NCBI RefSeq assembly: GCF_003334335.1
Contig: NZ_QOWQ01000135.1
Length of the DNA stretch: 953 nt
Source of the DNA: Escherichia coli
Lineage (GTDB): Bacteria > Pseudomonadota > Gammaproteobacteria > Enterobacterales > Enterobacteriaceae
Direction: 5' to 3' (one strand)
In this document: positions 1-953 of the stretch, piece by piece
How positions within the stretch are numbered: position 1 is the first letter of the stretch
Layout of the letters: each line of letters opens with the position of its first letter
Position numbers and translations under genes: made by a program
Notes under the pieces: model-generated
The model's input: only the letters and a program-made list of their open reading frames with translations
Databases searched by the model: none
What the model was told of the DNA's origin: nothing

Positions 1-1
1 G

Positions 2-34
2 CGTCGCCGTCGTCCGCTGGGAGTGAGGTTATGA
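2..34 (+). CDS. W: 3' end of upstream gene (5'-partial), probable gpW-like head-tail joining / head completion protein; last 10 codons only
   Basis: Reading from base 2 gives RRRRPLGVRL followed by TGA at 32-34. This arginine-rich tail resembles the C-terminus of lambda gpW as I recall it (...QRRRGPAGFYV), and W-then-B is the lambda gene order. Only 10 codons are visible and the comparison is from memory, so the call rests mostly on synteny. Confidence 0.45.
   Translation, partial: RRRRPLGVRL
19..28 (+). promoter_or_regulatory. Ribosome-binding site (Shine-Dalgarno) for the portal gene
   Basis: Purine-rich GGGAGTGAGG at 19-28; the GGAG core at 20-23 sits 7 nt upstream of the ATG at 31. It lies inside the 3' end of the upstream gene, consistent with coupled translation. 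Confidence 0.5.
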
Positions 35-953
35 AACGAACGCCTGTCCTGATTGATGTGAACGGCGTTCCGCTTCGGGAGAGCCTCAGCTACACCGGTG
101 GCGGTGCAGGATTTGGCGGGCAAATGGCAGAGTGGTTGCCACCCTCGCAGAGTGCCGATGCGGCCCTGCTGCCCGCGTTGCGTCTGGGGAATGCCCGTGC
201 AGATGATCTGGTGCGCAATAACGGAATAGCGGCCAATGCGGTGGCCCTGCATAAGGATCACATTGTCGGGCATATGTTTCTGATTAGCTACCGTCCGAAC
301 TGGCGCTGGCTGGGGATGCGGGAGACCGCGGCAAAAAGTTTTGTCGATGAGGTGGAGGCGGCCTGGTCAGAATACGCAGAAGGGATGTTTGGTGAGATCG
401 ACGTGGAAGGGAAACGCACGTTTACGGAATTTATCCGTGAAGGTGTGGGCGTTCATGCGTTTAACGGCGAAATCTTTGTGCAGCCGGTCTGGGATACGGA
501 GAGCACGCAACTGTTTCGTACGCGTTTTAAAGCCGTGAGTCCGAAACGGGTGGACACGCCAGGACACGGTATGGGGAACCGTTTTCTGCGGGCCGGTGTG
601 GAGGTCGATCGATATGGCCGTGCCGTCGCGTACCATATTTGTGAGGATGATTTTCCGTTCTCTGGTAGTGGACGATGGGAACGGATCCCGCGTGAACTTC
701 CCACCGGACGTCCGGCCATGCTGCATATTTTCGAGCCGGTGGAGGACGGGCAGACCCGTGGGGCTAATCAGTTTTACAGCGTCATGGAACGGCTGAAGAT
801 GCTCGATTCCCTGCAGGCAACACAGCTTCAGTCGGCCATAGTGAAGGCGATGTATGCAGCGACGATTGAAAGTGAACTTGATACCGAAAAGGCCTTTGAA
901 TATATCGCCGGTGCGCCGCAGGGGCAGAAGGATAATCCGCTTATTAATATTCT
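31..953 (+). CDS. B: Portal protein, lambda gpB family (3'-partial; N-terminal ~307 aa, gene continues past the window)
   Basis: ATG at 31 opens a frame with no stop through base 953 (307 full codons). Translation begins MKRTPVLIDVNGVPLRESLSYTGGGAGFGGQMAEWLPPSQSADAALLPALRLGNARADDLVRNNG... and includes ...FEPVEDGQTRGANQFYSVMERLKMLDSLQATQLQSAIVKAMYAATIESELDT.... These match lambda gpB as I remember it (MKTPTIPTLLGPDGMTSLREYAGYHGGGSGFGGQ...; ...FEPVEDGQTRGANVFYSVMEQMKMLDTLQNTQLQSAIVKAMYAATIESELDT...). The upstream gene stops at 32-34 in another frame, and an SD precedes the ATG. The identification is by recall, not a database search. Confidence 0.94.
   Translation, partial: MKRTPVLIDVNGVPLRESLSYTGGGAGFGGQMAEWLPPSQSADAALLPALRLGNARADDLVRNNGIAANAVALHKDHIVGHMFLISYRPNWRWLGMRETAAKSFVDEVEAAWSEYAEGMFGEIDVEGKRTFTEFIREGVGVHAFNGEIFVQPVWDTESTQLFRTRFKAVSPKRVDTPGHGMGNRFLRAGVEVDRYGRAVAYHICEDDFPFSGSGRWERIPRELPTGRPAMLHIFEPVEDGQTRGANQFYSVMERLKMLDSLQATQLQSAIVKAMYAATIESELDTEKAFEYIAGAPQGQKDNPLINI

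What the first reader, a model, noticed from the sequence alone, without database searches (positions are those of the whole stretch)
19..34. Upstream gene stop overlaps portal start (ATGA), suggesting translational coupling
The upstream frame ends with TGA at 32-34, sharing two bases with the portal ATG at 31-33, and the portal SD lies within the upstream gene's last codons. My recollection is that lambda has a short intergenic gap between W and B, so this junction appears more compact. Such overlaps usually imply coupled translation, which would help fix the stoichiometry of the head-tail joining and portal proteins.
Basis: partly seen in the sequence, partly recalled or inferred. Interest (0 to 1): 0.25.

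Follow-up and report, generated by a model that had tools for sequence, protein, structure and literature searches.

The report
Ordinary gpW–portal ATGA gene overlap
The stop codon of a phage head-tail adaptor gene (gpW) overlaps the start codon of the portal gene by four bases, but phage lambda and many relatives have the same arrangement, so it is real, conserved and already known.

Summary
ATG at 31-33 starts a lambda-family portal gene. TGA at 32-34 ends an upstream frame whose last residues are RRRRPLGVRL. A GGAG Shine-Dalgarno at 20-23 lies inside that frame, 7 nt before the ATG.

In a 99.6%-identical E. coli prophage the upstream ORF is a 68-aa gpW/Ad1 adaptor, 55% identical to lambda W. 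The window is 96.8% identical to phage 21 genes 3/4.

The comparative claim is wrong. Lambda W (2633..2839) and B (2836..4437) overlap by the same four bases (gtATGAaa). The 4-nt overlap also occurs in phage 21 (annotated with its RBS in GenBank M81255), N15, phi80, Gifsy-1 (GTGA), two Aeromonas phages and Chi. A Vibrio relative has a 1-nt overlap.

Four-base overlaps make up 4 of 18 lambda and 5 of 20 phage 21 late-gene junctions. They are also the commonest arrangement of co-directional E. coli gene pairs.

Termination-reinitiation coupling is plausible. gpB and gpW are 12:12 in the virion and touch each other. It is untested here, and no RNA structure suggests RBS occlusion. Partial coupling plus independent SD-driven initiation is most likely.

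Verdict: already known; low interest.

The parts
2..34 (+). 3' end of the gpW-type head-tail adaptor (Ad1) gene, phage 21 gene 3 homologue: last 10 codons (RRRRPLGVRL) plus the TGA stop. It runs off the left edge of the window.
   Evidence: Translation. The identical C-terminus occurs in the 68-aa ORF of a 99.6%-identical prophage (L004 3827-4033). That ORF matches phrog_75 Ad1 at 1.6e-28 and NF047331 at 46.7 bits against a cut-off of 33. It is 55% identical to lambda W.
20..23 (+). Shine-Dalgarno GGAG for the portal gene, embedded in the Gly-Val codons of the adaptor gene, 7 nt upstream of the ATG.
   Evidence: Sequence. The same bases are annotated as the RBS in phage 21 records OL657228 (2813..2816) and M81255 (2979..2982). 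The anti-SD duplex energy is -6.8 kcal/mol.
31..34 (+). ATGA overlap: portal start ATG (31-33) and adaptor stop TGA (32-34).
   Evidence: The same -4 overlap occurs in lambda, phage 21, N15, phi80, Gifsy-1 (GTGA), phiARM81ld, PCAh2 and Chi.
31..953 (+). First 307 codons of a lambda-family portal gene (gpB / phage 21 gp4 homologue). It runs off the right edge of the window.
   Evidence: TIGR01539 at 396 bits and phrog_21 at 2.3e-107. It is 62% identical to lambda gpB. DNA identity is 96.8% to phage 21 and 99.6% to E. coli prophages.

Best explanation
Window 19-34 is the junction between the gpW-type head-tail adaptor gene and the portal gene of a phage 21-type lambdoid prophage. The two genes lie on one late transcript. 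The adaptor stop (TGA) and the portal start (ATG) share the sequence ATGA, and a moderate GGAG Shine-Dalgarno sits in the adaptor's last codons. This arrangement is inherited: lambda and most lambda-family head modules have it. The most likely mechanism is mixed. A ribosome that terminates at the adaptor's TGA is already positioned on the portal ATG, and some fraction reinitiates there (termination-reinitiation), helped by the nearby SD. The same SD also allows some independent initiation. The result is roughly matched output of two proteins that are used 12:12 and bind each other. Shown here: gene identities, the overlap, the SD, conservation of the overlap, and the absence of an occluding RNA structure. 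Inferred: that reinitiation actually happens, and what share of portal translation it accounts for.
For: The same ATGA is present in lambda. The -4 or -1 junction is kept while flanking bases diverge. It is found in N15, phi80, Gifsy-1, two Aeromonas phages, Chi and Vibrio Valp1, and probably in Serratia BZS1 through an unannotated TGATG start. The junction is identical in 80 of 80 close relatives. No promoter-like or terminator-like site was found in the window, which fits co-transcription. No stable local structure was predicted (z-scores +0.97 and +0.58), so any coupling would be by reinitiation rather than by unmasking of the RBS. The virion holds 12 gpB and 12 gpW, and the gpW C-arm (residues 55-68, the part encoded here) binds gpB by beta-sheet augmentation (PMC10721106). 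In dual-reporter tests, 4 of 5 native E. coli -4 pairs showed coupling. Coupling needs an overlap or a very short distance, and such pairs are enriched for subunits of heteromeric complexes (PMC6728339 and PMC10666635).
Against: No experiment on W-B coupling was found in the searchable literature. One tested E. coli -4 pair (bioBF) showed no coupling, so geometry alone does not prove it. The SD here is of average strength, so independent initiation is feasible. More distant relatives have short gaps instead: +13 in Stenotrophomonas BCU1, +19 in Exiguobacterium and possibly +9 in Burkholderia AH2. The overlap is therefore not essential to the module. From my own recollection of classical lambda genetics, not checked here, W and B amber mutants complement each other, and W-defective infections still make DNA-filled heads that need portal. 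That argues against strict dependence of B on W translation. The two proteins also act at different times: portal at prohead initiation, gpW after packaging.
Confidence: 0.6

Rival explanations
1. The overlap is only genome compaction or mutational drift. Four-base overlaps arise easily and are neutral. The portal is translated entirely by independent initiation at its own GGAG SD, with no dependence on adaptor translation.
For: The SD is of average strength for this operon. -4 overlaps are the commonest junction type in E. coli and make up 20-25% of junctions in the lambda and phage 21 late operons, whatever the partner proteins. The bioBF pair shows that a -4 overlap can exist without coupling. 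Distant relatives with +13 and +19 gaps still function. Classical genetics as I recall it has W amber mutants still making portal-containing heads.
Against: The -4/-1 geometry is retained across portals only 34-60% identical while the surrounding nucleotides changed. Lambda, N15, phi80 and Chi have weak SDs before the portal start (lambda -4.1 over -20..-4; the others -4.1 to -8.4 over -22..-1, with the N15 and phi80 pairing 16 nt or more upstream), which makes purely independent initiation less attractive there. 4 of 5 tested E. coli -4 pairs were coupled.
Confidence: 0.32
2. The true portal start is another codon, for example the in-frame GTG at 58-60 or the ATG at 124-126. In that case there is no real stop/start overlap.
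For: Both are in-frame potential starts. No protein N-terminal data were available here.
Against: The 99.6%-identical relative L004 has no in-frame start codon between ATG 31 and the next upstream stop (phage 21 itself has one in-frame GTG 30 nt upstream). The residues encoded from ATG 31 onward (MK..P.L...G..LRE) align with lambda, Aeromonas, Vibrio and Serratia portals. The only properly spaced SD precedes ATG 31. Every curated record starts the gene at this ATG.
Confidence: 0.03
3. The overlap serves a programmed -1 frameshift that makes an adaptor-portal fusion protein.
For: The portal frame is -1 relative to the adaptor frame and is open for at least 30 nt upstream of the ATG.
Against: There is no slippery heptamer in 2-31. 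There is no stable downstream structure and no Rfam frameshift element. No such product is described for lambda in the structural and mass-spectrometry paper consulted.
Confidence: 0.01

Closest known systems
Phage 21 genes 3 and 4 (GenBank M81255 and OL657228)
   Same: The window is 96.8% identical in DNA. The ATGA overlap, the GGAG RBS and the 68-aa gene 3 product are the same.
   Different: A few substitutions only. For example, window 2-4 is CGT (Arg) where phage 21 has TGT (Cys).
Lambda W-B junction (NC_001416: W 2633..2839, B 2836..4437)
   Same: Same gene order (terminase A, W, B), same 68-aa W length and same 4-nt ATGA overlap.
   Different: The flanking sequence has diverged: W is 55% and B 62% identical. 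Lambda's SD before B is weaker, AGGA with 8-nt spacing and -4.1 against -6.8 kcal/mol. The A-W junction is -4 in lambda and -17 in the phage 21 type.
Termination-reinitiation coupled -4 gene pairs of E. coli (hyfHI, astDB, ydbH/ynbE, menDH; Huber et al. 2019 and 2023)
   Same: Co-directional ATGA overlap, an SD inside the upstream gene, and products that are subunits of one complex.
   Different: Coupling was measured for those pairs and has not been measured for this one. This is a phage late-operon pair whose products act at different assembly steps.
Other -4 junctions in the same late operons (lambda A/W, Z/U, H/M; phage 21 Z/U, H/M, stf/orf23)
   Same: Identical junction geometry within the same transcript.
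   Different: Different partner proteins. This shows the geometry is a general habit of the operon and not special to W-B.

Membership tests
gpW / head-tail adaptor Ad1 (PHROG 75; NCBIfam NF047331) | Profile match above the curated cut-off | tested here: met
   The full ORF from the 99.6%-identical locus L004 scores 46.7 bits against a cut-off of 33, and 1.6e-28 against phrog_75. The window itself holds only the last 10 codons, which are identical to that ORF's C-terminus.
gpW / head-tail adaptor Ad1 (PHROG 75; NCBIfam NF047331) | Small protein of about 68 aa encoded between the large terminase and portal genes | tested here: met
   The ORF is 68 aa and lies between the terminase large subunit and portal genes in L004, phage 21, PhiR12_1 and 80 IMG/VR relatives.
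gpW / head-tail adaptor Ad1 (PHROG 75; NCBIfam NF047331) | Basic C-terminal arm (RRR.P.G motif) that contacts the portal | tested here: met
   R60 and P63 are invariant in the alignment of 7 homologues, and the C-terminus is arginine-rich in all of them. The contact role of the C-arm is taken from the lambda structure (PMC10721106) and was not modelled here.
Lambda-family portal (TIGR01539 portal_lambda; PHROG 21) | Profile match above the curated cut-off | tested here: met
   396 bits against a cut-off of 172.7, and phrog_21 at 2.3e-107. It is 62% identical to lambda gpB over 292 residues.
Translationally coupled (termination-reinitiation) gene pair | Co-directional genes with a -4 or -1 stop/start overlap | tested here: met
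   ATGA at 31-34.
Translationally coupled (termination-reinitiation) gene pair | Both genes on one transcript | tested here: inconclusive
   No promoter-like or terminator-like site was found in the window, and the overlap leaves no room for one. That lambda has a single late transcript is established knowledge and was not measured for this prophage.
Translationally coupled (termination-reinitiation) gene pair | Downstream translation depends on ribosomes reaching the upstream stop codon | not testable with these tools
   This needs a premature-stop reporter assay with transcript quantification. No published W-B test was found.
Structure-mediated coupling (RBS occluded until the upstream gene is translated) | Stable RNA structure sequestering the SD or start codon | tested here: not met
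   The 116-nt junction folds no better than shuffled sequence, with z-scores of +0.97 (this type) and +0.58 (lambda). There is no Rfam match.

The most novel reading that the evidence does not exclude
The adaptor-portal overlap could be an obligatory dosage device conserved across lambda-family head modules. Portal synthesis would then come mainly from ribosomes reinitiating after gpW, locking output to the 12:12 virion ratio. The same 30 nt would encode both the gpW C-arm that grips the portal and the portal's translation signal, so the protein interface and the RBS would have to co-evolve.
Probability: 0.2. Interest if true: 0.25.

Novelty: already known. Interest (0 to 1): 0.07.

Why it matters
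It matters little beyond correct annotation. The result fixes the portal start and shows the junction is the standard lambda-family arrangement, not a derived compaction. If coupling were demonstrated, it would add one more example of overlap-mediated stoichiometry control for two proteins that assemble 12:12. That principle is already documented for many E. coli complexes.

Tried and rejected
- **RNA structure at the junction:** folding for an RBS-occluding hairpin gave no structure more stable than shuffled sequence.
- **Rfam:** a scan of the window at E<=1 gave no match.
- **Promoters and terminators:** the scan found none.
- **IMG/VR scan:** a scan with a 7-sequence portal alignment, meant to widen the junction survey, returned only relatives at 98% identity or more. 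It was therefore uninformative about deep conservation. I used individually fetched divergent phage records instead.
- **Literature:** searches for a direct lambda W-B coupling or polarity experiment, and for per-gene lambda ribosome-profiling values, found nothing usable. The PNAS 2013 lambda ribosome-profiling paper is not held.
- **Frameshift fusion:** considered and rejected, because there is no slippery site and no structure.
- **Source of the window:** no exact copy was found in any fetched locus. The best match is 99.6%.

Full report
**What is in the sequence**

The window begins gcgtcgccgtcgtccgctgggagtgaggttATGAaacgaa.
- Frame 2 (bases 2-34) reads RRRRPLGVRL and stops at TGA 32-34.
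- The frame opening at ATG 31-33 stays open for 307 codons to the end of the window.
- GGAG at 20-23 (GGGAG 19-23) lies in the upstream frame's Gly-Val codons, 7 nt before the ATG.
- A second purine run, GAGG at 25-28, is only 2 nt from the ATG.

**What the genes are**

The downstream ORF is a lambda-family portal.
- It scores 396 bits against TIGR01539, cut-off 172.7.
- It matches phrog_21 at 2.3e-107.
- It is 62% identical to lambda gpB.

At the DNA level the window is 96.8% identical to phage 21 and 97.9% to several E. coli lambdoid phages. It is up to 99.6% identical to prophages in E. coli chromosomes. The module occurs in 1863 of 5426 complete E. coli genomes.

The window holds only ten codons of the upstream gene. 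In the 99.6%-identical locus L004 the same frame is a 68-aa ORF with the identical C-terminus.
- It matches phrog_75 'head-tail adaptor Ad1' at 1.6e-28.
- It scores 46.7 bits against NF047331 'phage head-tail joining protein', cut-off 33.
- It is 55% identical to lambda W.
- Nearly all of the 80 close relatives from IMG/VR carry the same 68-aa ORF (two have no intact one), and all 80 have a junction identical from -27 to +4.

**Is ATG 31 the real portal start?**

The evidence favours ATG 31.
- In the 99.6% relative L004, the portal frame has a stop 54 nt upstream and no ATG, GTG or TTG in between. Phage 21 itself has one in-frame GTG 30 nt upstream.
- The residues encoded from ATG 31 align with the N-termini of the lambda, Aeromonas, Vibrio and Serratia portals.
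- Every curated record begins the gene at this ATG, including the original phage 21 head-operon deposit M81255.
- Alternative in-frame starts (GTG 58-60, ATG 124-126) have no SD and would truncate conserved sequence.

**The comparison with lambda is wrong**

In NC_001416, W is 2633..2839 and B is 2836..4437. The sequence there is ...ttttatgtATGAaaacg. Lambda therefore has the very same 4-nt overlap and no gap. The window's junction is not a more compact derivative. It is the family's standard arrangement.

**How far the arrangement is conserved**

| Phage | Adaptor-portal junction |
|---|---|
| Phage 21, N15, phi80, Aeromonas phiARM81ld and PCAh2, Salmonella phage Chi | -4 overlap, ATGA |
| Gifsy-1 | -4 overlap, GTGA (GTG start) |
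| Vibrio Valp1 | -1 overlap, TAATG |
| Rhodobacter RcCWillis | Annotated -10, but in-frame ATGs also sit at -4 and -1 |
| Serratia BZS1 | Annotated +65, but an in-frame ATG forms TGATG with the adaptor stop |
| Stenotrophomonas BCU1 | +13 gap |
| Exiguobacterium 137 | +19 gap |
| Burkholderia AH2 | Annotated +144, possibly +9 |

- Chi's portal is only 34% identical to the window's portal.
- The Serratia alternative start restores an N-terminus (MSDIKILGPNG...) that aligns with the family.
- The bases flanking ATGA differ between lineages while the overlap stays. That argues for retention by selection or strong mutational stability, at least among enterobacterial, Aeromonas and Chi-like modules.
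- The gaps in the more distant phages show the overlap is not indispensable.

**How unusual is the geometry?**

It is not unusual.
- In lambda's late operon 4 of 18 junctions are -4 overlaps (A/W, W/B, Z/U, H/M).
- In phage 21 the figure is 5 of 20.
- About half of all junctions in both operons overlap in some way.
- In E. coli as a whole, -4 ATGA is the commonest arrangement of co-directional gene pairs (PMC10666635).

**Mechanism**

No promoter-like or terminator-like site lies in the window. The overlap leaves no room for one, so the two genes must be co-transcribed.

The 116 nt around the junction fold no better than shuffled sequence, in this type (z +0.97) and in lambda (z +0.58). No Rfam family matches. 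Coupling by unmasking of an occluded RBS is therefore not supported.

The geometry fits termination-reinitiation. A ribosome stopping at TGA 32-34 already covers ATG 31-33, with an SD 7 nt upstream.
- In dual-reporter tests with premature stop codons, 4 of 5 native E. coli -4 pairs showed coupling. One, bioBF, did not (PMC6728339).
- Coupling collapses when the distance grows to about 20 nt (PMC10666635).
- Overlapping pairs are enriched for subunits of heteromeric complexes (PMC10666635).

gpB and gpW qualify as such subunits. The lambda virion has a 12-fold gpB portal ring and a 12-fold gpW adaptor ring. The gpW C-arm (residues 55-68) binds gpB by beta-sheet augmentation (PMC10721106). That C-arm is the very segment encoded by window 2-31, so these 30 bases both encode the portal-binding arm and carry the portal's SD.

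The SD here is of average strength, -6.8 kcal/mol, about the middle of the range for phage 21 late genes. Lambda's SD before B is among the weakest, at -4.1. I therefore favour mixed initiation: reinitiation plus some independent entry at the SD.

**Limits**

No experiment on W-B coupling or polarity was found in the searchable library, and the lambda ribosome-profiling paper is not held.

From my own recollection of classical lambda genetics, not verified here, W and B ambers fall in separate complementation groups. W-defective infections also yield DNA-filled heads, which require portal. That would exclude strict dependence of B on W translation, though not partial coupling. The two proteins also act at different steps: portal at prohead nucleation, gpW after packaging. 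Matched synthesis would be convenient but is not obviously required.

**Verdict**

The gene assignments are confirmed. The claim of greater compactness than lambda is refuted. Translational coupling remains a reasonable but untested inference of a well-known kind. The junction and its RBS are annotated in the original phage 21 head-operon record (GenBank M81255) and in the lambda reference sequence. Novelty: already known. Interest: low.

Noticed in passing
L094 1445-1513 (Serratia phage vB_SspM_BZS1, MT843275): The portal start is annotated 65 nt after the gpW stop. An in-frame ATG at L094 1447 overlaps the stop as TGATG. It restores an N-terminus (MSDIKILGPNG...) that aligns with lambda and Vibrio portals, so the deposited start is probably too far downstream.
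   Followed up: partly
L095 1366-1513 (Burkholderia phage AH2, NC_018283): The portal start is annotated 144 nt after the gpW-like stop. An in-frame ATG lies at L095 1378, only 9 nt after the stop. The N-terminal alignment is too weak to decide between them.
   Followed up: partly
L093 1345-1356 (Rhodobacter phage RcCWillis): Three in-frame ATGs (1345, 1351, 1354) straddle the gpW-like stop TGA at 1352-1354. They give possible -10, -4 or -1 overlaps, and the annotated one is -10.
   Followed up: no
L005 1701-1704 (Gifsy-1, NC_010392): The portal uses a GTG start, so the overlap is GTGA rather than ATGA. The adaptor C-terminus (GVRL) matches the window's type and not lambda's (GFYV).
   Followed up: no
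L001 2621-2637 versus L003 2633-2636: The terminase-large-subunit/adaptor junction differs between types. It is a 17-nt overlap in phage 21-type modules and a 4-nt ATGA in lambda, whereas the adaptor/portal junction is the same in both.
   Followed up: no
window 2-4: The codon is CGT (Arg) here and TGT (Cys) in phage 21 and in 4 of 80 IMG/VR relatives. Other relatives have Ser a codon earlier. This is a small polymorphism in the arginine-rich C-arm of the adaptor.
   Followed up: partly
L097 2816-2835 (lambda): Lambda's predicted SD pairing before gene B (-4.1 kcal/mol) is among the weakest in its late operon, together with nu1 and E. The window's type has a clearer GGAG (-6.8).
   Followed up: partly
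window 367-726, minus strand: A 119-aa ORF lies antisense to the portal gene, with an 88-aa ORF at 453-719 on the same strand. Both lie wholly inside a well-supported coding region and are most likely spurious.
   Followed up: no
window 1-953 against E. coli genomes: This head-module segment is present in 1863 of 5426 complete E. coli genomes, with a median of 2 and up to 5 copies per genome. Many strains therefore carry several prophages with near-identical phage 21-type head genes.
   Followed up: no
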